From Acidobacteriota bacterium (lineage in GTDB: Bacteria > Acidobacteriota > UBA6911 > RPQK01 > JADFOI01): a stretch of DNA of 64,000 nucleotides. The stretch's first letter is position 1. Every line of letters starts with the position of its first letter. The translations under genes and the position numbers were made by a program. This document shows positions 1-49,519 of this stretch, piece by piece. The DNA is taken from NCBI GenBank assembly GCA_963663035.1, contig OY760074.1, positions 1,408,001 through 1,472,000 of the forward strand, given 5' to 3'. Below the pieces are notes generated by a model that was not told the DNA's origin, made no database searches, and was given only the letters and a program-made list of their open reading frames with translations.

Positions 1-1
1 G

Positions 2-2083
2 TATGTGGACGAGTATCAGGACGTCAATCCGGCGCAAACGGCCCTGATTAAAGCGATGGTTCCGCCCAACGGGAAACTGCGGGTTGTCGGGGACGACCTT
101 CAGAGCATCTACAACTGGCGAGGCAGCGACGTGACCAGGATTCTTGAATTCTCTAATGAGTTCGAGCCGGCCGAAGTGTTCCGTCTGTCCACGAATTACC
201 GATCGAGGCCTGAAGTGGTCACGGTTGCCAACGGCGTTGCGGAAGACATCGTTTTGAAGGACCCCCAGAAAGTGATGCAGCCCGGCCGAGAGAAGTGTGG
301 CCGAAAGGTTATTCACTGGCTTTCGACGAACAACGAGACGGATCAGGCGGAGACGATTGTTGAGATAGTTAAGCGGTTCCACAGCGCCGGTGTGCCGCAT
401 TCAAAGATCGCGATCTTGCTTCGTTCGGTTACCGGGGCAGGGAGGCCGATATACGAAGCCCTTAAGGCGGAGAGCATTCCCGTGGAATGTCCGATGCTCA
501 GTCGCGGCGGGGCTTTCATCAATACGTTTCTGCTCCCGGTTCTGAAGTGGCTGCGCACGGAACAGCTGGAGTCGAGAAACAGGCAGGAAGAGGAAGAGCA
601 AGAGGCAGACGCGCATTCGCTGTGGTTGTCGGTGGCTCCTTGGTTGTCGGTGGAAAACGCCGAGGACGTTTTTTGGAGTGGTCTGAATCACTGGTACGAC
701 CTCGTGCGGGGAGGCAAGAGCAGTGCATACAACGTAAGAAGCTGCCTTTACGATTTCCTGGACGAGTGTGGGGTCCGAGTAGCGCCCTCAGACACAGACC
801 TGATGGTCGGAATCGGCATAGCATCCCAGATCATTCGGAGGGTGGAAGAGATTCACCGAAGACGAATCAAAGGCCAAAACAGGCGTTCGGCTGCCGGGGT
901 TATCAGTGAGGTGTACTACGCGCTTATCCGCAATCAGGGAAACTTCGGTGAGAGCTTGCCGGTCAATCTAAAGGCCGAAGGGGTCGTTCTGACGACAGTG
1001 CATCAAGCCAAAGGCCTGGAGTGGCCGGTTGTATGCCTGCCGATGCTGAATAGAAGGCGCTTTCCGTTAGTAAACCGGCCAGCCAAAAGCAGCTTTCCAC
1101 CACTCATCTCCGACAGGTATGGGACCAAGTTGGACGATGAACGGCGCCTGTTCTACGTAGCGGTCACGAGAGCTCGTGAACGGCTTTTCATGCTGGATAC
1201 GGCGGCGGCGGACCCACGGGTAAGGTCGGCCTTCCTGACAGACCTAAAGCAGAGGGGAGTGCTCCCTCAAGAGGGTTTATCAGAACCGTCGGATTTAACT
1301 TGGTCGATTGCGGCGAAAGACTTGCGAAGCGACAGCCAGCCGCCAATCAGGGTGAGCCTTTCTGACCTCTTGCTGTACCTCGAATGCCCATATCAATTTG
1401 GCCTTCGCAGAGTCACCGGCCTCCAACCAGCAGTGGGCGATGAATTGGGTTTCGGGAAAGGACTCCATGAGCTGTTACAGCGGCGGGCGGAAAGCGATCA
1501 CGCATGGAACCAAGAGGAAGTGACGACCCAAGTAGAGAGCCACGTCCATCTGCCGCTGAGTTCGGATAAAGAAGAACAGCGCGCGAAACGTGCGATCGCT
1601 CAGAGGATTACCGAGCTTGACAAGCTCGGTGCATTCACGAGCGAACTCCGGCAGGAGCTGCCAGTGGAAGTATTCCTGAGTAGTGGCGTTGTGACTGGCG
1701 TCATCGACTTCGTCTATACGCAGCCGGATGGCTCCCTGGCCGTTCGCGATTGGAAAGCCAACGTCCATGACGAGTTCATCGCGCGATACGCCCGCCAACT
1801 GCAGGTCTATGTACACGCCTTGCGAATGCAGGGGCAGACTGTCAGCAGGGCAGAACTCGTTGACGTTGGCGCATCGATGAAAGCAAAGAAGCTCGTCACG
1901 ACCGCTGTTGATATTAGCGAAGCCACGATTTCCCGGTTGATGGAGGACTGCCAGCAAGCGTTGCAAGCAATACGGGAAGGCACGTTTAAGCCAAAACCTA
2001 GTGTCAGCGTATGTGGGAGTTGCGACGTGCGGCGGATATGCGCTGTGCGCGAGGGAGAAGAACGTGCGGAAACTGAAAACTAG
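2..2083 (+). CDS. UvrD/REP-family helicase fused to C-terminal RecB/Cas4-like PD-(D/E)XK nuclease (5'-partial)
   Basis: Helicase motifs VDEYQD, VGDDLQSIYNWRGS, LSTNYRS, TVHQAKGLEW, ERRLFYVAVTRA. Nuclease motifs VIDF..VRDWK..QLQVY with four Cys (LECPYQF ... CGSCDVRRIC). Frame is open at the window start. Confidence 0.93.
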   Translation, partial: YVDEYQDVNPAQTALIKAMVPPNGKLRVVGDDLQSIYNWRGSDVTRILEFSNEFEPAEVFRLSTNYRSRPEVVTVANGVAEDIVLKDPQKVMQPGREKCGRKVIHWLSTNNETDQAETIVEIVKRFHSAGVPHSKIAILLRSVTGAGRPIYEALKAESIPVECPMLSRGGAFINTFLLPVLKWLRTEQLESRNRQEEEEQEADAHSLWLSVAPWLSVENAEDVFWSGLNHWYDLVRGGKSSAYNVRSCLYDFLDECGVRVAPSDTDLMVGIGIASQIIRRVEEIHRRRIKGQNRRSAAGVISEVYYALIRNQGNFGESLPVNLKAEGVVLTTVHQAKGLEWPVVCLPMLNRRRFPLVNRPAKSSFPPLISDRYGTKLDDERRLFYVAVTRARERLFMLDTAAADPRVRSAFLTDLKQRGVLPQEGLSEPSDLTWSIAAKDLRSDSQPPIRVSLSDLLLYLECPYQFGLRRVTGLQPAVGDELGFGKGLHELLQRRAESDHAWNQEEVTTQVESHVHLPLSSDKEEQRAKRAIAQRITELDKLGAFTSELRQELPVEVFLSSGVVTGVIDFVYTQPDGSLAVRDWKANVHDEFIARYARQLQVYVHALRMQGQTVSRAELVDVGASMKAKKLVTTAVDISEATISRLMEDCQQALQAIREGTFKPKPSVSVCGSCDVRRICAVREGEERAETEN

Positions 2084-3359
2084 AGAGGATATCTGGGTTT
2101 TGACCCCGAGCGCTGATGACCTGAAGGCGGGAGCGTACTATGCCGCCGTCAGCCTTCCTTGGACATTCAACCGCATGATGCTCAACACGACTTCGGCCGG
2201 CCAACGGCATCGAGCCCTGAACATTGCGAAGGGCATCGTTGGGCAAGAAATACTCAAGCGCGAGATGGAACGGGTTGGAATAAAGGCTCAGATGCAGCGA
2301 AAAAGCTATCGCGATGAAGACCTGTTCGATTTTAACGTCGAAATCGGTGGCACTCTAACAAAGCTCGATTTGAAGAGCGTCAATTACTTTACGGACTACG
2401 CACCTATCGGACGCGAACCGTTTTCGGCAGATTTGCTCATGAAGTACACGGGATATGCTGACGCTGACTGGAGAACCTTCTTCCCGATGCTCGTGCCACA
2501 TACGCAAATCGAGCAGAGCAAGGAAGGTTACTGCTTCGCAATCGCGAGCAGTATCGACCTGAGAAAAGACATAGCGACCAAACGGACGGGCTACGCGCTG
2601 ACAGCGTTCCCTTATGGGGAACATCTAGGGTTTCTGAGTTCCAAGAAGCTCTGTCTGCTGCGGGAAGAAGCCAACAAGGGCTTCTACGTCGAATTCCTGT
2701 ACAAAGCGGACTCTCTTTTCGGCTCCGAAGTGACCCTGTCGGCGATAGGGGAGTGGGACGGTGAGCCTAGTATGATTGAGGTGAAGCTGCGTTCCGGCGT
2801 GGCAAAGCAAGTTGGGCCGTTCTCGTGCATCTCATCTTTCCAGGTGGACAAGGACAGCTATGACCAGCTTTCCGGATCGGTCGAAATATCGGTGAAGAAG
2901 AACGGCTTCAAGACGCCGGTTCTTAACACGCAAAAACGGAACACCAATAGGGTTCCCAAGGGATCTTTCAAGCTGGCGAGGCCCGACTTCTGCAATTTGT
3001 TCTTGCCGACGGACTACACGTTGTACGTGATCGGGTGGACGTACAAGGACGAGTTTCTTCAGGCATGCCGGCAGTACACGGGCTGGGTGTGGCCTAAGGA
3101 CAGCATCGACAAGTTCAAGAACCAAGCCTGGACCCAAATCACTGAGAAGGACCGGAAAAATCTAGGAAAAAAAGGGTTCGGGAGTTCTATACCAGACCCG
3201 CCGCGTATACTAAGAGCAGGGTGGCTCAAGACGACAGGCCATGGCGGAGGCGCCTGCTGCTACGTGTTTCCGAACATCGGAGCAAACGGAGGAGTGAAGG
3301 AGACAAATCTTTATATCCTGCCTCGGGATTTGTACACTATGGGCACCCTGGAACAGTAG
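2064..3359 (+). CDS. Hypothetical protein, putative PD-(D/E)XK restriction endonuclease
   Basis: GTG at 2064 after GAGGGAG RBS, overlapping the helicase 3' end. Motif GQE..LFDF..LDLKS and YVIGW..DEF. Sits directly upstream of a DNA methyltransferase. Confidence 0.6.
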   Translation: MRKLKTREDIWVLTPSADDLKAGAYYAAVSLPWTFNRMMLNTTSAGQRHRALNIAKGIVGQEILKREMERVGIKAQMQRKSYRDEDLFDFNVEIGGTLTKLDLKSVNYFTDYAPIGREPFSADLLMKYTGYADADWRTFFPMLVPHTQIEQSKEGYCFAIASSIDLRKDIATKRTGYALTAFPYGEHLGFLSSKKLCLLREEANKGFYVEFLYKADSLFGSEVTLSAIGEWDGEPSMIEVKLRSGVAKQVGPFSCISSFQVDKDSYDQLSGSVEISVKKNGFKTPVLNTQKRNTNRVPKGSFKLARPDFCNLFLPTDYTLYVIGWTYKDEFLQACRQYTGWVWPKDSIDKFKNQAWTQITEKDRKNLGKKGFGSSIPDPPRILRAGWLKTTGHGGGACCYVFPNIGANGGVKETNLYILPRDLYTMGTLEQ

Positions 3360-3372
3360 GGAACGGTTTTAG

Positions 3373-4905
3373 ATGAGCGGAAATATGGCAATTGGTAAAC
3401 AAGACAGGTTGACCTTCGACCCTTCCTCTGCCGCAAAGAGGCAGAAGGGCAATCGCGGCGGGCCACCGAATCGAATGAACGATTTGGTATACCGCGACTG
3501 GATGAAGTTCCAGAAGAGTTTCTTCCGGTTCGCATCAGATCAGGCGCTCATCGAAGAATGCGTGTACTTCTTCACGAAGGCGATCTGGGACGACGGAACC
3601 GCATCGCGGACCTTGATCGTGGGAGCAGAGGAGTTCTCCCAAGCGGCAATCCCCTCCCCTCGAGTCGTCACGCACGTCTGCGGGCACAAGTCGTTCGAGA
3701 CGGTTAACAACACCCTTTGCGGCCAGACCAGGAAGACCAGAGAGCACGACTTCGTGCTTGTGGACCTGCGCGCTCTCATCACAGAACAAGCCGAGCTGGA
3801 TGATTTCATCAACCGATACGCCGAGGGATTTTTCGAGGGTATCCGGGCGGCACTTAGAGATGATCGCTACTGCTGCGTGATGGTGGGACTTCCACAGACC
3901 GGTGGTGGTGGATTTCCGTTTCCGTGGGCAGTGGCCCTCGCGGCGCGCGCTCATCTGAGGCTGCGGGATGAGAAAATAGGCCTGATCGAGGACGAAGGGC
4001 GTGCATTCTACTGCCTGTTCATGCAAGCGAACGAGGATGGCCGGCCGCGAGAGAGTATGACCAAGAAAAGCTTCCATCTCTCGGATGCGGAGTTCTGCCG
4101 GGATGTACCTGCATGGATCATTCCAAGGCCTCCCCCTAGGAGGAAGAATGAAATTCTTCATCCTGCTAAGTTCCCGGAGACGTTAATCGAACAGCTTATT
4201 AAGATTCACTCTTCGGAGATGGATAACGTCTTCGACCCGATGGTGGGAACGGGTAGCACAGTGATTGCTGCGTTGCGGACGAAGAGAAACGGGTTCGGGA
4301 TCGATCTCTCAAAGGAATTCATCCAGACCGCGCAGGATCGAATAGCGCAAGAACAGGCACCATCGTTATTCCCCGGTGTTGAGCTAGAGGGGCGGGTTTT
4401 TGTTGGTGATGCCACTAGGCTCGATGAGATACACGAACTTGATGGGATTGAATTCCAGTACGCGGTGACGAGCCCGCCGTACTGGTCAATGCTGAAGAAT
4501 CCCGGCAGCGAGAATCAGAAGGCCAGGCGCAGCCGCAATCTTCCCCTGGTGTATTCCGATGATGTACAGGACTTGGGAAACATTGCCGACTACGACGAAT
4601 TTCTGAATGTCCTAGAGAGCATATACAACGATGTTGCCGTGCGACTAGCGGACGATGGAATGCTCACAGTTGTGGTGAAGAACGTAAAGCGGCATCATAC
4701 CCTCCATCCGCTGGCCTGGAATCTGACCAGCAGACTCTGCGGTCCGAAAGGTTCCTTCAATTACGTAGGTACAACGCTGTGGTGCCAAGACGATGTTGGA
4801 ATCAAACCTTTTGCAGTCGGAATCCTCTGGGTGAGCAACATCCTGCATACGTACTGCCTGCATTTTCAAAAACGGAAAGTCCCCGAAGAACCGCGCAAGA
4901 ACTGA
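3373..4905 (+). CDS. Amino-DNA methyltransferase (N4C/N6A) with degenerate N-terminal duplicate domain
   Basis: HPAKFP, VFDPMVGTGST (motif I) and VTSPPYW (motif IV) lie in the C-terminal half. The N-terminal half aligns by eye to the C-terminal half but lacks these motifs. Confidence 0.9.
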   Translation: MSGNMAIGKQDRLTFDPSSAAKRQKGNRGGPPNRMNDLVYRDWMKFQKSFFRFASDQALIEECVYFFTKAIWDDGTASRTLIVGAEEFSQAAIPSPRVVTHVCGHKSFETVNNTLCGQTRKTREHDFVLVDLRALITEQAELDDFINRYAEGFFEGIRAALRDDRYCCVMVGLPQTGGGGFPFPWAVALAARAHLRLRDEKIGLIEDEGRAFYCLFMQANEDGRPRESMTKKSFHLSDAEFCRDVPAWIIPRPPPRRKNEILHPAKFPETLIEQLIKIHSSEMDNVFDPMVGTGSTVIAALRTKRNGFGIDLSKEFIQTAQDRIAQEQAPSLFPGVELEGRVFVGDATRLDEIHELDGIEFQYAVTSPPYWSMLKNPGSENQKARRSRNLPLVYSDDVQDLGNIADYDEFLNVLESIYNDVAVRLADDGMLTVVVKNVKRHHTLHPLAWNLTSRLCGPKGSFNYVGTTLWCQDDVGIKPFAVGILWVSNILHTYCLHFQKRKVPEEPRKN

Positions 4906-5036: not shown

Positions 5037-6773
5037 TCACGTCAGCAGCGTCGTGATCTCGGATTTGAGACTTTCCCTCCTCGCCGAGTGAAAGGATTTG
5101 AACTCTAAAAGGTCGTCGGGCACATTGCCGAGCAGGTGCAGATTCAGGTACTCGGTCCGTTTCTCATCGGACTCGAAAGTGGAGAGCCATTCGGTCGGCA
5201 GTTTCGAGCGCTTCTCCTGGTTTTCGACACCCGCCAGGAGCTGGAGGTTCGGCAGGCTGTTCATCATCTCACGTAGGTCCGCTACCTCCTCTTCCGAGAA
5301 ACCTTTCGACTTCAACAGCGCCGCCGCGAATTGAGATTTGGGGAAGAAGTGGTCCACGTGAAAGTGATGCCTAAGATCGAGGTGTCTGAATATCAGCGAC
5401 AGTAGACAGAACGTACGTTTGTCCCCGTAGCGCATGTCGGTCAATTCGTCGATTTCCTCGCTGTTGAACACGAGGGACTTGCCGCGCGTGCTCATTGCTT
5501 TGCGCAATTCTTCAACCGGAAATCCGTTACCTTGATTGTCCTTTATTACTTGCCGGAGTAACGTTAGGAATGAGTCTAGCCCGCTTCCCCAGATACCTGA
5601 CTTCAGTAGACCAGAAACCAGCCACTTCCGAATTATCTCTCTGTCGGCGTTGGACTGCGCCTGGGTTAAATATCCGTCTTCCGCCCCAGTTCCATAAAAG
5701 TAGTAGGCTATTGGCAAGAGGGCGCTGTCTGTCCTGAGGGTTTCCGACTTGAAGCCGAAGTTCGAAGCCAGATGGACTGTAAGCGTCAGCGACCGTTTGA
5801 TTTTTTCCCACTTGCTCTCCAGTATCTCCATATTCTTTCGGTTGAAATTCTCCACTTTGAAACCAACGCTGCCAATGTCGCTGAGCATCAGACCGGCCTT
5901 GAGTACCCAATCCTTGGAAAATTCGAACCCGTTGCCGATCTTGTTGATATCGTCGACTAGCTGGTGAATCACCTCGCGGGCGTCGTACTTCGACCACTGG
6001 GCCACGGCGACGGATAGCAGCAGATCGGAGTAGGACAGAACGGTTCCTCCGCTGTTTGTCCGAATGAATATCTGAAGGACCTCCTCCAGTTCTTGGCTAG
6101 CCTCTTCGTAGAAGCACACCAGTAATCTCTCTCGAATGACAGTGTACAATTGGTGAAGCACCTTGTGGGCCTCCGCAACGGGGCGGTTGGGTAGTCGGTT
6201 CTCAAGCCACTCAGTCATGGCTGGTCCGCTGTCGGCCAGTTTCAAGATGTCCTTGACCTCAAACCAGCACGACGCACTGTTATCGACTTCCTCTCGAGTA
6301 CGAAAATCAAACCGATATTGAACGCCGACGTCGTCATCGTCATCGGGGGTCCAAAGCAGGTCGATGTAGAGGTGCTTTTGTGGGTATGCGTCGGGGTTGG
6401 TGCGCCGCTTCCAAGGGAGTTTCTTCGCCATCGAGCCGCGAGGACCGATGTTGAACGCGGTTAGGCGCTGCTGACCGTCGAGGACGGCGATCACATCCCG
6501 ATTCGGCATCTCGCCCAAGCGGTGGCAATGTGGATCATCTCTTTCGTGATACTCGCGGACAAAGTCGTAGAACTGGTAGCGGGTGTTGTGCTCCTGGCTA
6601 ACCTTCCAGTAAAGGAAGGTGCCGAAGGGGTAGCCTCGCATGAGGCTGTCAAACAGAGTGCAGATTTGCGCTGGCTCCCATACAAACTCGCGCTGGATGG
6701 CCGGCAGCACGAGTTGATGGCATTCGATTTGGTGGAGTGTCTGCTCGATCGTTACAGCCGTCTGGTACATCAC
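5037..6773 (-). CDS. DUF262-DUF1524 (GmrSD-like, type IV modification-dependent nuclease)
   Basis: LPAIQREFVW, LDGQQRLT, FIRTNSGG (DUF262); VDHFFP..NSLPNLQLL..N (HNH/DUF1524). Confidence 0.9.
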   Translation of the reverse strand: MMYQTAVTIEQTLHQIECHQLVLPAIQREFVWEPAQICTLFDSLMRGYPFGTFLYWKVSQEHNTRYQFYDFVREYHERDDPHCHRLGEMPNRDVIAVLDGQQRLTAFNIGPRGSMAKKLPWKRRTNPDAYPQKHLYIDLLWTPDDDDDVGVQYRFDFRTREEVDNSASCWFEVKDILKLADSGPAMTEWLENRLPNRPVAEAHKVLHQLYTVIRERLLVCFYEEASQELEEVLQIFIRTNSGGTVLSYSDLLLSVAVAQWSKYDAREVIHQLVDDINKIGNGFEFSKDWVLKAGLMLSDIGSVGFKVENFNRKNMEILESKWEKIKRSLTLTVHLASNFGFKSETLRTDSALLPIAYYFYGTGAEDGYLTQAQSNADREIIRKWLVSGLLKSGIWGSGLDSFLTLLRQVIKDNQGNGFPVEELRKAMSTRGKSLVFNSEEIDELTDMRYGDKRTFCLLSLIFRHLDLRHHFHVDHFFPKSQFAAALLKSKGFSEEEVADLREMMNSLPNLQLLAGVENQEKRSKLPTEWLSTFESDEKRTEYLNLHLLGNVPDDLLEFKSFHSARRESLKSEITTLLT

Positions 6774-7329: not shown

Positions 7330-7642
7330 CTAGCGCTCCTTATCTTCAGCGTGTTGTGATGCTTTGATTTTCCGCAAAACTTCGTCGGTATAGGCTTCTG
7401 CATTCGCTATCGCGTTATCGACGCCAGAGACTTGGGACGGGTTCAGATCGTGCAACACGCCACCAAATGAGCGCATAGCCCGGAAGGCTTCACGGTCAAT
7501 CAATGAAATCTTAAAGAGATCAACTCCCGCCCCTTCAAACTGCTCGACAATATGGCGCAGGGTCCGCGGCTGTATTGCTGGACTCGTCCGCGTAAAGAGC
7601 ACAGAGAAAGGAATAACGCGCTTTAGAAGCTTCGATTGGTTC
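7330..7642 (-). pseudogene. ParA/VirC1-like ATPase C-terminal fragment, truncated by IS5
   Basis: VLFTRTSPAI..LIDREAFRAMRSFGG..NAIANA resembles a ParA C-terminus; frame runs up to the IS end. Confidence 0.7.
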
Positions 7643-8746
7643 AGCGTTGTTGCATGGATCGGGGCGGAGATGGAATTCGCCCTTTCCCAAGCGGTAGCGT
7701 CAGGCGCTGCGTTGGAACACAGGCCGCCCGAGTGCGGTCATTGTGTTCAGAACTTTCTGGCCGACCTGGATCTCCGTGATTTGCCTGGAGAAGCTGCGAG
7801 ATTTGAGCTTGGGGCCGATCGCGCTCTTCCAACGACCGATCTGCGTTTCTATCCGGCTGCGTTGGTTGTACCCTGTGGCCACTTGCCAGGCCATGCGGCC
7901 GTTGCTGCGGATCTGGGCAATATGGCGATCCCGAACGGTTGGATTCCGCGCCGATTGCGGTCGGATCACTGCGTTTTTCGGCGGCGGTATAACCACATCC
8001 AGGGTCTCCCCATACCTCTGCCTCAGCATATCCCGTATAGACGCTCCATCATAGGCGCCGTCAGCCAGAAAGCCCGTGACAGGAGCATCGAGTTGATCCA
8101 GGAGCCCGGGTAAGGCGGTGCTGTCTCCAACCTCATCGTGAGTCAGATCGGCGCAAACAATCGCACCGCTGGCCAGGTCCAGTCCGAGGTGGAGTTTGCG
8201 CCAGCGGCGGCGTATTCCCTTGATTTTATGCTTCTGGGCGAGCCATTCCCCCTCGCCGAAGATCTTGAGGCCGGTACTGTCCACCACCAGATGGACAGCC
8301 ACAGACCCGGCTTGCCTCATCGCCTGAGCGATGTTCAAGCCGTTTGCGCGACGCGACAGTGTGGAGTAATCCGGCACCCGTATATCCAGCCCCATGAGCG
8401 TGCCGATGGAGCCCATAAGTCCCTGCGTTTGCCGCAACGCAAGCCGATACGTCGTGCGCAGCGTCAGGCAGGTCTCGATCGCCAAATCCGAGTGTCTCCA
8501 CTGGCCACCCCGTGACGTGCGCCGCGCCGCGCTCCACACACTTTGCGCCTCCTCACTGACCCAGATCGTCAGATCGCCCCGCTGGCGCAGGCTCTCGTTA
8601 TATTCCGCCCAGTCGATCACCCGATACTGCGCCTTATCGAACTTGTGCCGTCGGGATGCGTTGAACTTATGTGGCATCTAAGTTATCCCCAGTGTTGAAA
8701 AACACCATGATTAGACATCCTTCGGGATGATCCATGCAACAAGGTC
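7643..8746 (-). mobile_element. IS5-family (IS903-like) insertion sequence
   Basis: Terminal inverted repeats agcgttgttgcatggatc / gatccatgcaacaaggtc; no target duplication visible. Confidence 0.88.
7700..8677 (-). CDS. IS5-family DDE transposase
   Basis: WAEYNESLRQRG, VVDSTGLK, WRKLHL, ADGAYD, RSRIET motifs. Confidence 0.95.
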   Translation of the reverse strand: MPHKFNASRRHKFDKAQYRVIDWAEYNESLRQRGDLTIWVSEEAQSVWSAARRTSRGGQWRHSDLAIETCLTLRTTYRLALRQTQGLMGSIGTLMGLDIRVPDYSTLSRRANGLNIAQAMRQAGSVAVHLVVDSTGLKIFGEGEWLAQKHKIKGIRRRWRKLHLGLDLASGAIVCADLTHDEVGDSTALPGLLDQLDAPVTGFLADGAYDGASIRDMLRQRYGETLDVVIPPPKNAVIRPQSARNPTVRDRHIAQIRSNGRMAWQVATGYNQRSRIETQIGRWKSAIGPKLKSRSFSRQITEIQVGQKVLNTMTALGRPVFQRSA

Positions 8747-8922: not shown

Positions 8923-9156
8923 TCAGGAGTGGTGTTCCTTGTAGTACTCCCAGACTTTTAGAAATAAGTGGCTGGAATGGAGATTCCGGGCTGCGGCGTA
9001 GGCCTTAAACTCGCACTTGGCTGCGGGAGGTATTCGCACCTGAAAAGGCACATTCTCCCCTGTCACGGGGCGCAGAAGATTGTCAGGCGTCGCGGCAGGT
9101 ATGGGAGGAGCTCCTTTGGGATTTGGCTTTTGGAGTGCGGCGTTGATTTTGGTCAT
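8923..9156 (-). CDS. Small ParG-like (ribbon-helix-helix) partition protein
   Basis: 77 aa, start overlaps parA stop (TAATG); flexible N-terminus then VPFQVRIP..KCEFKAYAA..LFLKVWEYY. Confidence 0.7.
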   Translation of the reverse strand: MTKINAALQKPNPKGAPPIPAATPDNLLRPVTGENVPFQVRIPPAAKCEFKAYAAARNLHSSHLFLKVWEYYKEHHS

Positions 9157-9812
9157 TAGGAGGCCTTTCTGTTAGTGATCTTGGTTATGGCGTCGATGAT
9201 GCTCTGTGCGGTGGTGTCGGCACGGCGGTTGAGGGTCTGGTAGTTGGTTTCGGTGGCGGTGCGGCCTGCATCGCTTGCACGCCGGTAGGCGATGCGCTCC
9301 GGTACCTCACCCGCTATCATTTGGTATCCTGCCGCTTTGATGTATTCCTTTGCGTGCTGTATCTCGATCTTGCTGTCGCCAACACGCCAAAGGACAAAGG
9401 CGAGCCGTTCCGGATCTACGCCGTGCTGGTGACTCAGTTCGTGGGCAAGGCCCACTTGCGGGTGAAGATCGTCAACGGCAAGGCCCGTGGGGAGTATCAC
9501 GAAATCGGATGCGCGGGCCATGTCGCGGGTAGCCCTACTGGCATGGGGGGCACCGTCAAAAATAAACAGGTCGAACTTATCCGCAGCGGTCAAAGCGGTG
9601 CTGACACTCGTGAAGGTTTCGGTGTGAATTTCCGGCATGACTTGGTTTGCAGCTCGGCGCTTGAACCAGTGGTAGCTGGTGGCCTGCTGCACATCCATAT
9701 CAGCGATGTTGACGAGCCATCCGTTGTCAGCGAACTCGCGGGCGATCAGGCGGGCGATGCTACTTTTCCCAACACCGCCTTTTTGTGAGACGACGGCTAC
9801 TTTGATTGCCAT
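9156..9812 (-). CDS. parA: ParA-family (type Ib) partition ATPase
   Basis: Deviant Walker A QKGGVGKSS, DMDVQQ, FIFDGAP; 218 aa with no N-terminal HTH. Confidence 0.92.
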   Translation of the reverse strand: MAIKVAVVSQKGGVGKSSIARLIAREFADNGWLVNIADMDVQQATSYHWFKRRAANQVMPEIHTETFTSVSTALTAADKFDLFIFDGAPHASRATRDMARASDFVILPTGLAVDDLHPQVGLAHELSHQHGVDPERLAFVLWRVGDSKIEIQHAKEYIKAAGYQMIAGEVPERIAYRRASDAGRTATETNYQTLNRRADTTAQSIIDAITKITNRKAS

Positions 9813-10301: not shown

Positions 10302-11568
10302 TGACCTGCCCCCACGAACGAGTCCACCCTCTATGCTAGACCCGGGACCATTTGAAGTCCACTCCAAGGGATTGGATCCAGTGCCTGCGACCTAGGTAGT
10401 TTGGCCTCTGGCGCCGGCGGCCGATAGGCCAAGGCGCTGTGAGGCCGGATCTGATTGTAATCCCTCCGCCAGCGTTCTACCAACACCTTGGCTTCCCCCA
10501 GCGTGTCGAAGATCTCCATGTTCAGCAGCTCATCCCGTAGTTTCCCGTTGAAACTCTCAATGTACCCATTCTCCCAGGGGCTGCCCGGCTCGATGTACAA
10601 GGTCCTTACCCCAACAGCCTGCAGCCAGTCCCGGACCGCCTGTGCCGTAAACTCCGATCCGTTATCGGACCGGATAAACTCAGGCACTCCCCGATCAACG
10701 AATAACTCCGCCAGCCGGTCCAACACGTCTTGGTGATTCATCTGCCGTTTCACATCAATGGCGAGGCACTCTCTGGTGTACTCATCCAGGATCGTCAATA
10801 GCCGAAAGGCTCGCCCATCATGGGTCCGTTCATGCACGAAATCATAGCTCCAGACGTGGTTCTTGCGAGCCGCTCGTAACCGAACACAGGAACCGTCATT
10901 AAGCCACAGCCTCCTTCGTTTCGGCTGTCTGGACGGGACTTTCAGCCCTTCTTGTCTCCACAGCCTCTCCATCCGCTTAGGATTCCCCTTCCACCCTTCC
11001 CCATGAAGTATCGCCGTGACCCGCCGGTAGCCATAACGCCCGTATTGCGTAGCCAACTCCACCATCCGGGCCACCAATCGGGCCTCATCATCGGGAATTT
11101 GCCTTTCCCTTCGCTGGGTCGATCGAACCTGTCCCAGCACTTGGCAGGCCCGACGTTCGGAGACTCGCTCTGCTCCTAATCGCTCTCGTACCCACATCAC
11201 CGCTCGTCTCCTGTTCGCCGGGCCTAGAAGTTTCCCGAGGACACTTCCTTCAGGATCTGCTTGTCCAAAGACAGATCCGCCACCAGCTTCTTCAACCGGG
11301 TATTCTCCTTCTCCAACACCTTCAACCTCTTGGCCTGGTCCAACCGGAGCCCTCCGTACTCTTTGCGCCACCGGTAGTAGGTCTGCTCGCTCACCCCCAT
11401 CTGCTTCGACACCTGTCCCACCCTCTGTCCTTGGGCCAGACCCACCTCTGCCTCACGCAGCTTCATGATGATCTGTTCTGCCCTAAACCGCTTCCCTGCC
11501 ATCCTTGCCTCCTTCCTAAACCGGAAATCCTAACATTCAAACTGGACTCGTTTTAGGGGGCAAGGTCA
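10302..11568 (-). mobile_element. IS3-family (IS407-like) element, copy 1, 1267 bp
   Basis: TGACC..GGTCA inverted ends; orfA 11224-11502 and orfB (rve, [17 protein letters not shown]) with GGGAAAC slippery site; no TSD. Confidence 0.95.
10331..11502 (-). CDS. IS3 transposase OrfAB (-1 programmed frameshift)
   Basis: OrfA HTH plus overlapping OrfB integrase core; G GGA AAC near the orfA end. Confidence 0.9.
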
Positions 11569-11582
11569 GTGTCGCCTGGATC

Positions 11583-39533: not shown

Positions 39534-40800
39534 TGACCTGCCCCCACGAACGAGTCCACCCTCTATGCTAGACCCGGGACCATTTGAAGTCCACTCCAAG
39601 GGATTGGATCCAGTGCCTGCGACCTAGGTAGTTTGGCCTCTGGCGCCGGCGGCCGATAGGCCAAGGCGCTGTGAGGCCGGATCTGATTGTAATCCCTCCG
39701 CCAGCGTTCTACCAACACCTTGGCTTCCCCCAGCGTGTCGAAGATCTCCATGTTCAGCAGCTCATCCCGTAGTTTCCCGTTGAAACTCTCAATGTACCCA
39801 TTCTCCCAGGGGCTGCCCGGCTCGATGTACAAGGTCCTTACCCCAACAGCCTGCAGCCAGTCCCGGACCGCCTGTGCCGTAAACTCCGATCCGTTATCGG
39901 ACCGGATAAACTCAGGCACTCCCCGATCAACGAATAACTCCGCCAGCCGGTCCAACACGTCTTGGTGATTCATCTGCCGTTTCACATCAATGGCGAGGCA
40001 CTCTCTGGTGTACTCATCCAGGATCGTCAATAGCCGAAAGGCTCGCCCATCATGGGTCCGTTCATGCACGAAATCATAGCTCCAGACGTGGTTCTTGCGA
40101 GCCGCTCGTAACCGAACACAGGAACCGTCATTAAGCCACAGCCTCCTTCGTTTCGGCTGTCTGGACGGGACTTTCAGCCCTTCTTGTCTCCACAGCCTCT
40201 CCACCCGCTTAGGATTCACCTTCCACCCTTCCCCATGAAGTATCGCCGTGACCCGCCGGTAGCCATAACGCCCGTATTGCGTAGCCAACTCCACCATCCG
40301 GGCCACCAATCGGGCCTCATCATCGGGAATTTGCCTTTCCCTTCGCTGGGTCGATCGAACCTGTCCCAGCACTTGGCAGGCCCGACGTTCGGAGACTCGC
40401 TCTGCTCCTAATCGCTCTCGTACCCACATCACCGCTCGTCTCCTGTTCGCCGGGCCTAGAAGTTTCCCGAGGACACTTCCTTCAGGATCTGCTTGTCCAA
40501 AGACAGATCCGCCACCAGCTTCTCCAACCGGGTATTCTCCTTCTCCAACACCTTCAACCTCTTGGCCTGGTCCAACCGGAGCCCTCCGTACTCTTTGCGC
40601 CACCGGTAGTAGGTCTGCTCGCTCACCCCCATCTGCTTCGACACCTGTCCCACCCTCTGTCCTTGGGCCAGACCCACCTCTGCCTCACGCAGCTTCATGA
40701 TGATCTGTTCTGCCCTAAACCGCTTCCCTGCCATCCTTGCCTCCTTCCTAAACCGGAAATCCTAACATTCAAACTGGACTCGTTTTAGGGGGCAAGGTCA
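39534..40800 (-). mobile_element. IS3-family element, copy 2, with ACGC target duplication
   Basis: Near-identical to copy 1; ACGC on both sides; orfA 40456-40734, orfB ends 39563. Confidence 0.96.
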
Positions 40801-42232: not shown

Positions 42233-43499
42233 TGACCTGCCCCCACGAACGAGTCCACCCTCTATGCTAGACCCGGGACCATTTGAAGTCCACTCCAAGG
42301 GATTGGATCCAGTGCCTGCGACCTAGGTAGTTTGGCCTCTGGCGCCGGCGGCCGATAGGCCAAGGCGCTGTGAGGCCGGATCTGATTGTAATCCCTCCGC
42401 CAGCGTTCTACCAACACCTTGGCTTCCCCCAGCGTGTCGAAGATCTCCATGTTCAGCAGCTCATCCCGTAGTTTCCCGTTGAAACTCTCAATGTACCCAT
42501 TCTCCCAGGGGCTGCCCGGCTCGATGTACAAGGTCCTTACCCCAACAGCCTGCAGCCAGTCCCGGACCGCCTGTGCCGTAAACTCCGATCCGTTATCGGA
42601 CCGGATAAACTCAGGCACTCCCCGATCAACGAATAACTCCGCCAGCCGGTCCAACACGTCTTGGTGATTCATCTGCCGTTTCACATCAATGGCGAGGCAC
42701 TCTCTGGTGTACTCATCCAGGATCGTCAATAGCCGAAAGGCTCGCCCATCATGGGTCCGTTCATGCACGAAATCATAGCTCCAGACGTGGTTCTTGCGAG
42801 CCGCTCGTAACCGAACACAGGAACCGTCATTAAGCCACAGCCTCCTTCGTTTCGGCTGTCTGGACGGGACTTTCAGCCCTTCTTGTCTCCACAGCCTCTC
42901 CACCCGCTTAGGATTCACCTTCCACCCTTCCCCATGAAGTATCGCCGTGACCCGCCGGTAGCCATAACGCCCGTATTGCTTAGCCAACTCCACCATCCGG
43001 GCCACCAATCGGGCCTCATCATCGGGAATTTGCCTTTCCCTTCGCTGGGTCGATCGAACCTGTCCCAGCACTTGGCAGGCCCGACGTTCGGAGACTCGCT
43101 CTGCTCCTAATCGCTCTCGTACCCACATCACCGCTCGTCTCCTGTTCGCCGGGCCTAGAAGTTTCCCGAGGACACTTCCTTCAGGATCTGCTTGTCCAAA
43201 GACAGATCCGCCACCAGCTTCTTCAACCGGGTATTCTCCTTCTCCAACACCTTCAACCTCTTGGCCTGGTCCAACCGGAGCCCTCCGTACTCTTTGCGCC
43301 ACCGGTAGTAGGTCTGCTCGCTCACCCCCATCTGCTTCGACACCTGTCCCACCCTCTGTCCTTGGGCCAGACCCACCTCTGCCTCACGCAGCTTCATGAT
43401 GATCTGTTCTGCCCTAAACCGCTTCCCTGCCATCCTTGCCTCCTTCCTAAACCGGAAATCCTAACATTCAAACTGGACTCGTTTTAGGGGGCAAGGTCA
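42233..43499 (-). mobile_element. IS3-family element, copy 3
   Basis: Near-identical to copies 1 and 2; no TSD; orfA 43155-43433, orfB ends 42262. Confidence 0.96.
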
Positions 43500-44450
43500 G
43501 ACCTTTACTCTGTCTGCTCGTGCATGCTTAGCAACGTTGGCCAACAATTCGCGCACCGCCTGGAACAGAGTGATGCGAGCATCGTCGCTCAGCGGCTTGG
43601 ACTGCCTATCGTCCTCAAACTTGACCAAAAAGTCGTGCTCTTCTTGGATTTGTTCGCAGAGCGACTCCACTGCTCCCTCAAGACCCAGCTGGTCGAGGAG
43701 GGGAGGACTAAGCTGGAATGTCAACGACCGAGCCTCACGGATCGTCTCTCCAAGAAGGTCGTAGACTTCGTGCAGGGACTTCTTAAGCCCTCTGGAGGGT
43801 ACTGATTGTCGCAGCGTTGCTAACTTCAATCTGCTGGCAGCCAGGGTTTGGCCGATACCGTCGTGCAGGCCGGCTGCAATGCGCTGACGTTCCCTCTGCT
43901 CGGCAAATGTCAATTCGGATGCCAGAGACTTGAGTTGGTTTTGATAGGCCAGAAGCCGCTTCTCTGCCTGTTTGCGCTTCGTGATGTCACGCAGGACCGC
44001 CCTGCTGCGAACAATCCTTCCGCGGTCATCGCGAACGGCCGATATATTCAAACTCACTTCTATTTTGCTTCCATCTTTTCTTTTCAATTGAAGTTCGGTA
44101 TCACGCACCTCGCCAGTCTCGATAAACGACCGGCGCACCTGTTTTACATCCTCTAAGCAATCAGGATGATAGATATCGAAAATGTAGCGGCCGATAAGCT
44201 CTTTCCCACTGTAGCCTGTAACTGTCTCCAAAGTCCGATTACATTGGACAATTTTGCCCGTGACCACCTCCACGGAGAAAAACATATCGGGGGCGTTATG
44301 ATAGAGATCTTGATATCTGGCTTCCGAGGCTCTCAGAGCCTCCTCCGCCTGGTTACGCTCGTCTTCTGAGGCTTCAAATTCAGTAATCTGTTGGCGCAGT
44401 TCTGCCAATTCACTTATGAGCTGCTTTTTTGTCTTGTCCTCATCCTTCAT
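43497..44450 (-). pseudogene. PAS/PAC HisKA_3 sensor histidine kinase, ATPase domain truncated by IS3
   Basis: PAS-PAC, ERQRIAAGLHDGIGQ, ELLANVAKHA, then stop inside the IS end. Confidence 0.9.
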
Positions 44451-47617: not shown

Positions 47618-49256
47618 CCGCAATTATTCATAAGTTTGGGGTGAGTGTCGATTTTCTGCGGAAGTTCAGGGCTGAGAGTGTGTTCAGGTGCGATTACAAG
47701 GCGTCCAAGCTTGTTGAGCCGAATAGAGATGAAGCGAGAGCCCCTTCCGGAAACAGCTCGGCCCGCAGGGGGCTGTATATCTGTGTTGGCGCAGGGAGTC
47801 AGGGGACCGTCAGGTGGGACACAGACGGTGCATCAGTAATGCGAAGAGCTTTTGTTCGGGATAAGACGATGCCAGGTGCACCCAGATGCGACGAGAAGTT
47901 TCCCGAACCCGGGCACCGATTTTGAACAGGCGGCGGCGGAGCGTCTCAATCTCCAGGTTGTGCCAGGGAGTCCCGCACAGGTAATCCCGCAGGCGCAGGA
48001 TTAAGACATAGGCCAGGGCGTGGATGAAGAGTCGGAACTGGTTGGCCAGGAAACGGTGGCAGCTCAAGCGATCCATGGCCAGATCTTTTTTGAAAGCTTT
48101 CACGAAGTTCTCGCACTGGCCCCGTCCGATGTAGTGGTCATACAGCTGCCCGGCCGTGAGATCCTGGCGGTTGGTGACCACAAAGCGACGGTTGAACCCG
48201 CGCTCGCTCACTTCCACCTTGGCCACCATGCGCCGCTCCCGGTCCCAACTGTCGGCCTGATAGACGAGCTCGGTGAACTGGCGTTGCTTTTCTCCTGAGT
48301 CGTCATAGTCTGCTTGCACCTGCTCAACCAAGGGCTCGACGGTGGCCGCCAGCCGGGAGTTGCGGGCAAAGCCCACCACATACTGCAGTTTTTCCTCCTC
48401 ACAGAACTCGTACAGTGCCGGCGTCGCAAAGCCACTGTCGGCTCGCACTTCGATCGGAACATCGGATCCCAGAACCTGGCGCATCCGGGCCACCACCCGT
48501 TTGAGAACCGCCACCGCGTGGGCGGCCGCCCCCTGGTTGCCGGGCCGCAGTAGCGCACATACCAGATCGCCCGTCTCGCCATCGAATAGCAGCAGCGGAT
48601 GATACATGTGCTCGCGATAATAGCCGTGGTAAAAGCTGAACTCCTGCTGCCCATGCGTGACGTCATCCGTGCTGTCGATGTCCAGGATGATCTTCTCGGG
48701 CCGGCTCTTCTTGCGGTGCTTCAAGTAGGTCTCCAGCAGCCACTGTCCCAGGCGAGTGAGATCCTTCGAGTCCACCGAGTTCTCCAGTCGCGACAGCGTG
48801 GGTTGAGAAGCCAGATCCGGATCGCTTTCCGGCAGCCGATCACACACGGTCTTGAAGATGGGATCCGAGCGCAAGCTGTCGGCATCGTTGCAGTCCTCAT
48901 AGCCGGCCACGATCTGAAAGCTGCGCTGGGTGAGCAGTTCGCGAATCTGGTGGCGGACGTAGCGGCTATCTCGAGCGTCCTTCAGGCAGGAGGCAAAGCC
49001 AGCCGTCAGTCCGTGCTGTTGATCCAGGGCGTACAGACACAGCAGCCCGGCATCGGAGGAGAGCCGGCCTCCATCGAATCGAGCCACCACTTTTCTGTCA
49101 GGGTGAGATGGCAAGTTGATCTGGCAGACTGATGCATCGCTGGGCCGTACCTTTTTGGTTTGGAGTTGTTTCATAACCCCTTTTATATCAAAGAGGTACG
49201 GCATCTTTTTGTGCCCTCGATCAGACCCCTTCTTCAGAATTTATGAATAATCCGGG
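47618..49256 (-). mobile_element. IS1380-family element with CTAG target duplication
   Basis: Ends ccgcaattattcataa / ttatgaataatccggg, each flanked by CTAG. Confidence 0.93.
47810..49204 (-). CDS. IS1380 transposase
   Basis: FDGGRLSSDAG, GYEDCND, SQPTLSRLEN, LDIDST, RADSGF, RGQCEN. Confidence 0.96.
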   Translation of the reverse strand: MPYLFDIKGVMKQLQTKKVRPSDASVCQINLPSHPDRKVVARFDGGRLSSDAGLLCLYALDQQHGLTAGFASCLKDARDSRYVRHQIRELLTQRSFQIVAGYEDCNDADSLRSDPIFKTVCDRLPESDPDLASQPTLSRLENSVDSKDLTRLGQWLLETYLKHRKKSRPEKIILDIDSTDDVTHGQQEFSFYHGYYREHMYHPLLLFDGETGDLVCALLRPGNQGAAAHAVAVLKRVVARMRQVLGSDVPIEVRADSGFATPALYEFCEEEKLQYVVGFARNSRLAATVEPLVEQVQADYDDSGEKQRQFTELVYQADSWDRERRMVAKVEVSERGFNRRFVVTNRQDLTAGQLYDHYIGRGQCENFVKAFKKDLAMDRLSCHRFLANQFRLFIHALAYVLILRLRDYLCGTPWHNLEIETLRRRLFKIGARVRETSRRIWVHLASSYPEQKLFALLMHRLCPT

Positions 49257-49519
49257 CTAGGGCTCCCCTTCCTCTTAAGTCACAGGTGTGATTTTGCTAA
49301 ATAATAAGGCTTAATGGGTTTAGAAGGCAAAATCCACTGATTCATATATTAATCCGAAGAATAGATGGATCCGTTCTTCGGAAAATATACACGCTGTGCT
49401 TCTGCAACATCGAGCGCGTCGCTCAACGTACACCGGACCAGTTCCCTCCTCCGGTGTTTCACGGGGGTGAATAATGTGTTGCTAAATTTATCACATTGTT
49501 CATTAGGCTTTGGCAGTCG

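What the first reader, a model, noticed from the sequence alone, without database searches (positions are those of the whole stretch)
3373..4905. Single-chain pseudo-dimeric methyltransferase: dead copy + live copy
Seen: the two halves align in order: LIEECVYFFT/LIEQLIKIHS; HDFVLVD/FQYAVTSPPY; LDDFINRY..IRAALRDDRYCCVMV/YDEFLNVL..VAVRLADDGMLTVVV; FPFPWAV/HPLAWNL; FYCLFMQ/TYCLHFQ. The N-terminal copy has lost both the SAM-binding and SPPY motifs. The live copy has HPAKFP-motif I-motif IV order, permuted relative to beta-class enzymes. Known: beta-class MTases often act as dimers, and tandem duplication is the proposed route to MTase circular permutation. Inference: a fused asymmetric dimer, possibly for one-strand or asymmetric-site methylation, or a scaffold for the partner proteins.
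Basis: partly seen in the sequence, partly recalled or inferred. Interest (0 to 1): 0.75.

Follow-up and report, generated by a model that had tools for sequence, protein, structure and literature searches.

The report
Methyltransferase with built-in dead twin
This gene encodes a DNA-type methyltransferase made of two fused copies of one small enzyme, the front copy having lost its working parts, a design known from a few other methyltransferases and seemingly not yet described for this family.

Summary
Window 3373-4905 (+) encodes a 510-aa PF01555-type methyltransferase.

- **Two copies.** Residues 30-221 and 247-501 are two copies of one module. N half against own C half gives hhalign E 3.1e-10. 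N half against free-standing ~270-aa relatives gives E 2.5e-24, end to end. Reversed and shuffled controls reach only E 0.02-0.3.
- **Fold.** The N half modelled alone (pLDDT 93) has a class-I methyltransferase fold: 50 of 50 top rows, Z 9.5-11.9.
- **Dead and live.** The N copy lacks the HPAKFP loop, the glycine loop and SPPY. The C copy keeps all three, in an order circularly permuted relative to beta-class enzymes.
- **New here.** The duplicated unit exists on its own, and one copy lies elsewhere in this genome. The long form is a large family.
- **Context.** This clade sits in a conserved operon with a UvrD-type helicase-nuclease and an unknown 431-aa protein.

That the dead copy replaces a second subunit is inference. 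The principle is known (RsmC, PRMT7). I found no description of it for DNA-type amino-methyltransferases.

The parts
3373..4905 (+). Whole methyltransferase gene, 510 aa (P0001)
   Evidence: ORF list and translation. PF01555 scores 79.5 bits against a cut-off of 26.7.
3460..3525 (+). N-terminal motif, aa 30-51 (GPPNRMNDL.Y.DWMKFQKSFF). It is the N-terminus of the ancestral short unit.
   Evidence: 13 invariant residues in 50 sequences. Column conservation is 0.93. The same motif opens the free-standing short forms.
3526..4035 (+). N copy core, aa 52-221. It has a methyltransferase fold without the motif X loop, the glycine loop or (S/D/N)PPY, so it is called the dead copy.
   Evidence: hhalign E 2.5e-24 to short forms and 3.1e-10 to own C half. 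Model pLDDT 93.4. 50 of 50 top VIA rows are class-I MTase-fold proteins, Z 9.5-11.9. Conservation is 0.57 against 0.38 for the linker.
4036..4110 (+). Poorly conserved linker, aa 222-246
   Evidence: Column conservation 0.38. pLDDT dips to 68-73 around aa 250-270.
4111..4875 (+). C copy, aa 247-501: the complete, presumably active methyltransferase unit
   Evidence: The short-form HMM matches aa 235-501, i-E 7.5e-84. VIA Z 17.9 to Trm11, 174 aligned, rmsd 2.5. Conservation 0.72.
4159..4176 (+). HPAKFP (motif X loop), aa 263-268
   Evidence: H263, P264, K266 and P268 are invariant and A265 nearly invariant. It aligns to HPAPFP of TTHA0409 and N4CMT.
4231..4257 (+). Motif I, FDPMVGTGS, aa 287-295
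   Evidence: D288, M290, G292, T293, G294 and S295 are invariant and P289 nearly invariant. Pfam and PDB alignments agree.
4471..4482 (+). Motif IV, SPPY, aa 367-370
   Evidence: Invariant in 50 of 50 sequences. It aligns to TSPPY of the N4-cytosine methyltransferase 8s9m.
2..2083 (+). 3' 693 codons of a 907-aa UvrD-type helicase fused to a PD-(D/E)XK (Cas4-like) nuclease. The gene starts 640 bases before the window.
   Evidence: Pfam UvrD_C, PDDEXK_1 and Cas_Cas4. Full gene at L083 11360-14083. Conserved upstream in L001-L004.
2064..3359 (+). Unknown 431-aa protein (P0272) between helicase and methyltransferase. It overlaps the helicase stop and ends 14 bases before the methyltransferase start.
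   Evidence: No Pfam, PADLOC, NCBIfam, PHROGs or PDB match. 229 homologues were found, one named 'Restriction endonuclease' by UniRef. R83, D86, D89, D102 and K104 are invariant. Conserved in L001-L004.

Best explanation
The gene encodes a single-chain, two-module amino-methyltransferase. It arose by tandem duplication of a ~270-aa, circularly permuted relative of the beta-class (PF01555) DNA methyltransferases. The C module (aa 247-501) keeps the HPAKFP loop, motif I, motif II/III acids and SPPY, and is the catalyst. The N module (aa 30-221) keeps the fold and a set of conserved core residues (FFTK, P..W, L.DEK). It has lost, by deletion, the motif X loop, the glycine loop, the SPPY loop with its ~35-residue tail, and the beta6-beta7 loop. 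It can therefore neither bind SAM in the canonical way nor catalyse. My reading of how it works, which is inferred: the dead module stands in for the second subunit that relatives of this lineage supply by homodimerising. It would give one active site per molecule and stabilise or position the live module on the substrate. In this clade the enzyme would be the modification arm of a three-gene restriction-modification-like operon. The other two genes are a UvrD-type helicase-nuclease and an unknown 431-aa protein with a D...D-x-K signature. The SPPY form of motif IV hints at N4-cytosine as target; that association is recalled, apart from the single N4CMT example.
For: Shown: homology of the two halves to each other and to the free-standing unit, with controls. 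Shown: methyltransferase fold of the N half modelled alone. Shown: a confident two-domain full model, pLDDT 84.1, pTM 0.84. Its top Foldseek rows are RsmC (3dmf, 2zul, 2zwv) and PMT2 (4krh), with RlmG (4dcm) at rank 28. The alignments span 417-461 columns but have rmsd of 18-21 A. That these are two-module methyltransferases comes from the abstract of PMC1934991 for RsmC and from recall for PMT2 and RlmG. Shown: the motif losses in the N copy are seen in every long form aligned, including seven at ~35% identity whose N copy is visibly closer to the C copy. The N copy is conserved well above the linker, 0.57 vs 0.38, with 13 invariant residues in 50 sequences, so it is kept for a purpose. Shown: permutation relative to beta class. 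Operon: helicase-nuclease and the 431-aa gene precede the methyltransferase in L001-L004, from four distant lineages. By my hand count, 44 of the 120 listed methyltransferase homologues share their longest-contig length with a listed homologue of the 431-aa protein (a proxy only). The two close relatives without these partners have a damaged methyltransferase: N-truncated in L005, in-frame stop in L006. From papers (passages read): tested beta-class enzymes are active only as multimers whose subunits divide SAM binding and DNA recognition (PMC10406627, PMC7544214). The RsmC domains are tandemly duplicated and functionally specialised (PMC1934991, abstract). PRMT7 is a pseudodimer with a dead second module that is needed for activity (PMC10908127).
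Against: No coordinates could be compared, so it is not shown that the N and C modules pack like a beta-class homodimer. In the rigid second look at the full model, all 50 rows shown match essentially the C module alone, and no RsmC-like two-domain superposition appears. The N core is net acidic, -7 here and family mean -3.0, which does not suggest a DNA-binding role. Whether the free-standing short forms dimerise is unknown. Long forms at ~35% identity sit among housekeeping genes without the partner genes, so the architecture is not tied to defence. The closest solved folds of the C module are tRNA m2G methyltransferases (Trm11, TrmN, Trm14; Z 16.4-17.9). An RNA substrate is therefore not excluded, although a sequential aligner favours them because they share the motif order. 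Activity, target base and SAM stoichiometry are untested.
Confidence: 0.65

Rival explanations
1. The dead N module is mainly a docking or regulatory platform for the operon partners (the 431-aa protein or the helicase-nuclease). On this view it couples modification and restriction and does not imitate a second methyltransferase subunit.
For: Gene order is tight and overlapping, and the genes co-occur in L001-L004. The N core is acidic and conserved. The methyltransferase decays where the partners are absent.
Against: The same two-module architecture is kept in clades with no such partners, next to housekeeping genes. So the N module must have a partner-independent role.
Confidence: 0.2
2. The enzyme methylates RNA (for example an m2G-type tRNA or rRNA modification) and not DNA. 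The operon would then not be a restriction-modification system.
For: The best structural matches of the C module are Trm11, TrmN and Trm14 (Z 16.4-17.9). Full-model Foldseek hits are led by RsmC. Distant long and short forms sit in conserved housekeeping neighbourhoods.
Against: Sequence homology is to DNA methylases: PF01555 at 4.5e-22 against UPF0020 at 0.082. All 9 PDB sequence hits are DNA or putative DNA methyltransferases. PADLOC MTase_II scores 6e-31. The neighbours are a helicase-nuclease and a GmrSD-type enzyme. Sequential structure aligners cannot match the permuted beta-class enzymes well.
Confidence: 0.1
3. The N region is not a duplicate. It would be an unrelated Rossmann-like or target-recognition domain inserted after the N-terminal motif.
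For: Free-standing forms join the N-terminal motif directly to the PPPR.K-HPA segment. In an alignment, aa 52-246 therefore looks like an insertion.
Against: There is end-to-end collinear profile homology to the short form, E 2.5e-24. Family-specific motifs are shared (FFTK, P.AW, DEKI, YCL.F), and the controls are negative.
Confidence: 0.03

Closest known systems
Beta-class DNA amino-methyltransferases (Pfam PF01555: TTHA0409, N4CMT, DpnA, M.MboIIA, CcrM)
   Same: Clear sequence homology of the live module: HPA.FP, D-P-x-x-G-x-G-T, and the SPPY / LG.I.DY..FL block. From the passages read in PMC7544214 and PMC10406627, these enzymes work as dimers with divided labour.
   Different: The motif order is circularly permuted, X-I-II-III before IV-VIII. 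No separate target-recognition domain is evident. The second 'subunit' is a fused, degenerate copy in the same chain.
RsmC (and RlmG) rRNA m2G methyltransferases
   Same: Two tandemly duplicated methyltransferase folds in one chain with functional specialisation (PMC1934991, abstract). They lead the Foldseek list for the full model. That the N domain is the inactive one is recalled.
   Different: They belong to another sequence family: no Pfam match to it at E<=1. The substrate is rRNA. No rigid two-domain superposition was found (Foldseek rmsd ~20 A).
PRMT7/PRMT9 pseudodimers; METTL3-METTL14 and DNMT3A-DNMT3L pairs
   Same: A catalytically dead paralogous module is required beside the live one. 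In PRMT7 it lies in the same chain and mimics a homodimer (PMC10908127, passages).
   Different: These are eukaryotic and have unrelated substrates. In PRMT7 the dead module is C-terminal. There is no homology beyond the common fold.
Free-standing ~270-aa permuted methyltransferases (e.g. L045 4963-5790, L037 7944-8750, and a paralogue in this genome)
   Same: They are the unit that was duplicated: N-terminal motif, PPPR.K-HPA.FP, motif I, SPPY, and YCL.F at the end.
   Different: Single module. No partner genes were seen in the two loci read. I found no name or study for them.

Membership tests
Pfam PF01555 N6_N4_Mtase (DNA amino-methyltransferases) | Profile score above the curated cut-off | tested here: met
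   79.5 bits against a cut-off of 26.7, E 4.5e-22. There are two stretches, the best being aa 245-321 to profile 143-220.
Pfam PF01555 N6_N4_Mtase (DNA amino-methyltransferases) | Motif I (SAM loop) and motif IV (D/N/S)PP(Y/F) present and conserved | tested here: met
   C copy only. D288, M290, G292, T293, G294, S295 and S367-P-P-Y370 are invariant, and P289 nearly invariant, in 50 sequences.
Class beta motif order | Motif IV precedes motif X and motif I in the chain | tested here: not met
   The live copy has X-I before IV. Against 2zie, query 19-84 aligns to chain 216-281 and query 150-195 to chain 56-101. A beta-order frame exists only across the dead-live junction, e.g. L007 aa 89-294 to profile 18-219.
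Pfam PF01555 N6_N4_Mtase (DNA amino-methyltransferases) | Methylates DNA adenine N6 or cytosine N4 | not testable with these tools
   Needs expression and methylome sequencing.
Tandem-duplicated dead-plus-live methyltransferases (RsmC / PRMT7 type architecture) | Two class-I methyltransferase folds in one chain | tested here: met
   Full model pTM 0.84. N half alone: 50 of 50 top rows have the MTase fold. C half: Z 17.9 to Trm11.
Tandem-duplicated dead-plus-live methyltransferases (RsmC / PRMT7 type architecture) | The two modules are homologous to each other | tested here: met
   hhalign E 3.1e-10, with controls at E 0.02-0.3.
Tandem-duplicated dead-plus-live methyltransferases (RsmC / PRMT7 type architecture) | One module lacks cofactor and catalytic motifs | tested here: met
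   In the alignments the N copy has deletions or substitutions at motif X, motif I and motif IV in all long forms examined. SAM binding itself was not measured.
Tandem-duplicated dead-plus-live methyltransferases (RsmC / PRMT7 type architecture) | The dead module packs against the live one as a pseudo-dimer and is needed for activity | not testable with these tools
Needs a structure and deletion mutants.
RsmC/RlmG sequence family | Sequence membership | tested here: not met
   No Pfam family other than PF01555, Methyltransf_25 (0.013) and UPF0020 (0.082) at E<=1.
Restriction-modification system | A cognate nuclease encoded beside the methyltransferase | tested here: inconclusive
   A helicase with a PD-(D/E)XK domain and a 431-aa protein with invariant D89...D102-x-K104 lie upstream and are conserved in L001-L004. 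Neither matches a known restriction enzyme family.

The most novel reading that the evidence does not exclude
The three genes (UvrD-Cas4-type helicase-nuclease, the unknown 431-aa D...D-x-K protein, and this dead-plus-live methyltransferase) form an undescribed kind of ATP-dependent restriction-modification or defence system. In it a single-chain pseudo-heterodimer replaces the Mod dimer of Type III-like systems, and its dead module couples methylation to the nuclease partners. In addition, the family preserves in living genes all the states that the duplication model of methyltransferase circular permutation requires: the beta order, the permuted short form, and a tandem duplicate holding both reading frames of the fold.
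Probability: 0.25. Interest if true: 0.7.

Novelty: new variant of a known kind. Interest (0 to 1): 0.55.

Why it matters
Beta-class DNA amino-methyltransferases are thought to need dimers in which one subunit catalyses and the other helps hold DNA. A natural single chain in which the helper copy is fused and degenerate would be a clean system for testing that division of labour, because it has one active site and a fixed geometry. The family also shows, in living genes, a tandem duplicate of a circularly permuted methyltransferase. This is the kind of intermediate that the duplication model of permutation postulates. The conserved operon with a helicase-nuclease and an unknown protein may be an unnamed restriction-like defence system found in several bacterial phyla.

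Tried and rejected
- **BLASTP of the two halves.** With the single sequence it gave E 0.30, which is insufficient alone; profiles were needed.
- **Complex prediction.** Complex prediction of the full methyltransferase with the 431-aa protein returned 'no answer' (score 0.00, mark 0.32). This is neither for nor against binding.
- **Rigid structural second look at the full model.** Only C-module matches appeared, with no two-domain match to RsmC, RlmG or others. A similar domain arrangement can be neither claimed nor excluded.
- **The 431-aa protein.** No hit in Pfam, PADLOC, NCBIfam or PHROGs, none in PDB by profile (best E 0.15), and only unnamed clusters in the ESM Atlas.
- **Known defence systems.** PADLOC gives only generic MTase_II and GajB-like helicase matches.
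- **Literature.** Seven answered searches found the RsmC, PRMT7 and beta-class precedents. None described a dead-plus-live tandem DNA amino-methyltransferase or this operon. Bujnicki's 2002 paper on methyltransferase permutations was not held, so whether it lists this permuted class is unchecked. No supplements were read.
- **Earlier notes of this scan.** Nothing on this place or sequence. The three analogous notes on other enzyme families do not bear on this protein.
- **Tree of the catalytic module.** It could not settle whether the long form arose once. 42 of 43 long forms lie in one 54-row subtree (SH-aLRT 91) in two clades, with short forms in a polytomy and one outlier (P0211). Fragments labelled by length inflate the count of changes.
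Full report
**What is there.** Window 3373-4905 (+) is a 510-codon ORF with an ATG start. Pfam finds one significant family, PF01555 N6_N4_Mtase (79.5 bits, cut-off 26.7). Its best stretch covers only aa 245-321 and matches the C-terminal end of the profile, positions 143-220 of 221. PADLOC gives generic Type II methyltransferase models (best 6e-31). NCBIfam gives only partial hits far below cut-off. The gene is the third of three co-directional, nearly touching genes. A UvrD-type helicase fused to a PD-(D/E)XK/Cas4-like nuclease ends at 2083. An unknown protein runs from 2064 to 3359. The methyltransferase starts 14 bases later.

**Is the internal repeat real?** With the single sequence it is not demonstrable.

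The protein, however, belongs to a large family of full-length relatives. The word-indexed search returned 791 proteins at E<=1e-3 among 8000 scored candidates. The 120 listed are 49-91% identical and nearly all cover more than 90% of the query. In the 50%-identity representative library, 105 representatives reach E<=1e-30.

Profile-profile comparison of the two halves gives these results:
- P 8.3e-4 with 50 close homologues, with two further short collinear matches.
- E 3.1e-10 (Prob 96.7, 171 columns) with a more diverse 50-row alignment.

Reversed targets give E 0.14-0.32. The best of 20 column-shuffled targets scores 21.7, against the observed 71.3.

**The key to the architecture: a free-standing unit.** Many relatives found in genomes match only aa ~225-500. 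Reading two of them (L045, 275 aa; L037, 268 aa) and 18 cluster representatives showed a ~250-295-aa enzyme. It has these elements in order:
- an N-terminal motif (R/K)LNDL...W.KF.KSWF;
- directly after it, PPPR.K..HPA.FPE;
- motif I, then SPPY;
- a C-terminal HHYCL.F.

The N half of the window's protein (aa 28-248) aligns to a profile of these short forms end to end: aa 31-221 against positions 1-280, Prob 99.6, E 2.5e-24. The shuffled-control best score is 18.5 against the observed 162.5. Even without the N-terminal motif, aa 136-208 alone give E 3e-16.

HMMER alone sees it too. The short-form HMM hits this protein at aa 118-216 (i-E 1.2e-4) and at 235-501 (7.5e-84). It hits the N copy in 85 of 118 close long forms and in 25 of 29 long-form representatives.

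Seven long forms at ~35% identity (L007, L009, L011, L013, L015, L019, L027) have an N copy that is plainly closer to the C copy by eye (YLT...N....P.AW....KDEKIGC....YCLNFR).

So the 510-aa protein is a tandem duplicate of the short unit:
- Copy 1 (aa 30-221) kept the N-terminal motif.
- Copy 2 (aa 247-501) kept only its last residues (W..P.PPPR.K).
- A poorly conserved linker (222-246) joins them.

**Fold.** AlphaFold2 with the family alignment gives pLDDT 84.1 and pTM 0.84. Blocks covering aa 51-220 score 92-97. Foldseek against the PDB is led by RsmC (3dmf, 2zul, 2zwv) and the nematode phosphoethanolamine methyltransferase PMT2 (4krh), with RlmG at rank 28. The alignments span 417-461 columns but have rmsd of 18-21 A. 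These are, by the abstract of PMC1934991 for RsmC and by recall for the others, two-module methyltransferases.

The N half modelled alone (pLDDT 93.4, pTM 0.91) was aligned without Foldseek to 48,161 representative chains. It returns class-I SAM-methyltransferase-fold proteins in all 50 rows shown, Z 9.5-11.9 with 126-162 residues aligned. The first is residues -1..166 of PMT2, which I recall to be its vestigial N domain. Foldseek agrees, with 102 matches at E<=1e-3.

Its secondary structure is that of the fold minus one beta-alpha unit: helix, b1, b2, helix, b4, long helix, b5, helix, b6, b7.

**Dead and live.** The alignments to the short form and to the C copy show what the N copy lacks:
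- It has deleted PPPR.K..HPA.FPE (the motif X loop).
- It has no D-P-x-x-G-x-G-T loop after the FFTK helix.
- It carries (D/Y)(F/Y).L.DLR where the C copy has TSPPYW plus a ~35-residue Arg-rich loop.
- In this clade it lacks the b6-b7 loop (QDD...PF..G..WVSN).

The C copy keeps H263, P264, K266 and P268. It also keeps D288, M290, G292, T293, G294 and S295. S367-P-P-Y370 is kept as well. All of these are invariant in 50 sequences.

The N copy is not decaying. It has 13 invariant residues in its core, and its column conservation is 0.57 against 0.38 for the linker and 0.72 for the C copy. That it cannot bind SAM is inferred from the motifs and was not measured.

**Permutation.** Against TTHA0409 (2zie), the C half's HPAKFP-motif I-motif II segment (query 19-84) aligns to chain 216-281. 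Its YSDD..LGNI.DY..FL...VVVKNV block (query 150-195) aligns to chain 56-101. The live unit is thus a circular permutant of the beta-class order.

The duplicate holds both frames. In L007, Pfam's beta-order profile runs contiguously (positions 18-219) across the dead IV'-VIII' part and the live X-I part. Both copies are collinear with the permuted short form, and copy 1 carries its N-terminal motif. The duplication therefore followed the permutation. It is the kind of intermediate that the duplication model invokes (PMC7544214, passages; Jeltsch 1999 as cited there), but it is not the one that produced this permutation.

**Distribution and context.** A quick maximum-likelihood tree of the catalytic module (112 rows) puts 42 of 43 long forms in one 54-row subtree (SH-aLRT 91). 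They form two clades (99 and 87), with short forms in an unresolved polytomy and one outlier. One or a few origins are possible.

Other architectures reuse the short unit behind unrelated N-terminal extensions, or carry a large insertion.

Of the loci fetched, the helicase-nuclease and the 431-aa gene precede the methyltransferase in L001-L004. Their record titles name a Candidatus Porisulfidus, a Candidatus Eisenbacteria, Salirhabdus and Planococcus. The two Bacillota loci carry one more unknown 303-aa gene in between.

The 431-aa protein has 229 homologues, none with a Pfam domain. One is named 'Restriction endonuclease' by UniRef. R83, D86, D89, D102 and K104 are invariant. This is a D...D-x-K pattern typical of PD-(D/E)XK nucleases, but that is my reading of the alignment and not a test.

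By a hand count, 44 of the 120 listed methyltransferase homologues share a longest-contig length with a listed homologue of this protein (a proxy only). The two close relatives without partners have a truncated (L005) or stop-interrupted (L006) methyltransferase.

By contrast, long forms at ~35% identity lie beside housekeeping genes: trpE/G/D, selA and phosphoglycerate mutase, dnaG.

**How it most likely works.**

Shown:
- two homologous methyltransferase folds in one confidently modelled chain;
- one with and one without the cofactor and catalytic motifs;
- conservation of the dead copy;
- a conserved operon in this clade.

From the literature:
- Tested beta-class enzymes act as multimers whose subunits split catalysis and DNA handling (PMC10406627 and PMC7544214, passages).
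- In RsmC and PRMT7 a degenerate duplicate in the same chain supports the active one (PMC1934991, abstract; PMC10908127, passages).

Inferred:
- The dead N module replaces a second subunit, so that the enzyme is a monomer with one active site.
- In this clade it protects host DNA from the helicase-nuclease and/or the 431-aa protein.
- SPPY, as in the N4-cytosine enzyme N4CMT (PMC10406627), hints at m4C. The general S-for-cytosine rule is recalled.

Against, or open:
- The packing geometry could not be compared with real dimers.
- The N core is net acidic.
- Structural neighbours of the C module are tRNA m2G enzymes, although they share its motif order and are therefore favoured by a sequential aligner.

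**Verdict.** The dead-plus-live reading is supported. The functional inferences remain untested. The principle is established in other methyltransferase families. For PF01555-type enzymes and for this operon I found no description in seven literature searches. No supplements were read, and one relevant older paper could not be obtained. I rate it a new variant of a known kind, of moderate interest.

Noticed in passing
window 7642-8746 and 2154-1050 bases before the window start (L083 9846-10950): Two inverted copies of a 1105-bp insertion sequence, 98.8% identical, with a transposase carrying DDE_Tnp_1 and DDE_Tnp_1_5. They flank the block helicase-nuclease / 431-aa gene / methyltransferase / GmrSD gene / two small ORFs. 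This is a composite-transposon-like arrangement on a single-contig 3.59-Mb chromosome.
   Followed up: partly
window 5037-6773 (-): A 578-aa GmrSD-type enzyme lies convergent to the methyltransferase and 132 bases from its stop. Pfam GmrSD_N scores 2.1e-26 and PADLOC HEC-05 scores 1.8e-215. This kind of enzyme is annotated as a nuclease for modified DNA, so two defence-type modules sit side by side.
   Followed up: partly
own genome G000:C1:2051782-2052258 (-), locus L082: The same genome also carries a free-standing short-form paralogue. It is a 298-aa open frame matching the short-form HMM at positions 3-269, E 2.7e-62, with TSPPY intact.
   Followed up: partly
L005 7908-9134 and L006 7938-9476: The two close relatives (59% and 48% identity) that lack the helicase and 431-aa genes have a damaged methyltransferase. 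In L005 it is N-terminally truncated next to a serine recombinase and DUF2924. In L006 it has an in-frame stop in the N copy. Both records are metagenome bins, so an assembly error is possible.
   Followed up: partly
L003 and L004 (L004 7089-8000): The two Bacillota operons have an extra 303-aa gene of no known family between the 431-aa gene and the methyltransferase.
   Followed up: no
proteins P0172, P0179, P0183, P0192, P0200, P0222, P0233, P0242; P0173, P0190: The short methyltransferase unit also occurs behind other N-terminal extensions of 150-470 aa that are not recognised by the N-copy HMM. In two representatives it is split by a large insertion after about profile position 130. Whether these extensions are still more degenerate copies was not tested.
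   Followed up: no
window 10302-11569, 39534-40800, 42233-43500; window 48264-49260: There are three 99.8%-identical copies of an IS3-type element (rve plus HTH_Tnp_1). A 997-bp stretch is identical to DNA lying 12 kb before the window start. The region is rich in mobile DNA. A ParA/MinD-type ATPase lies at 9156-9812.
   Followed up: no
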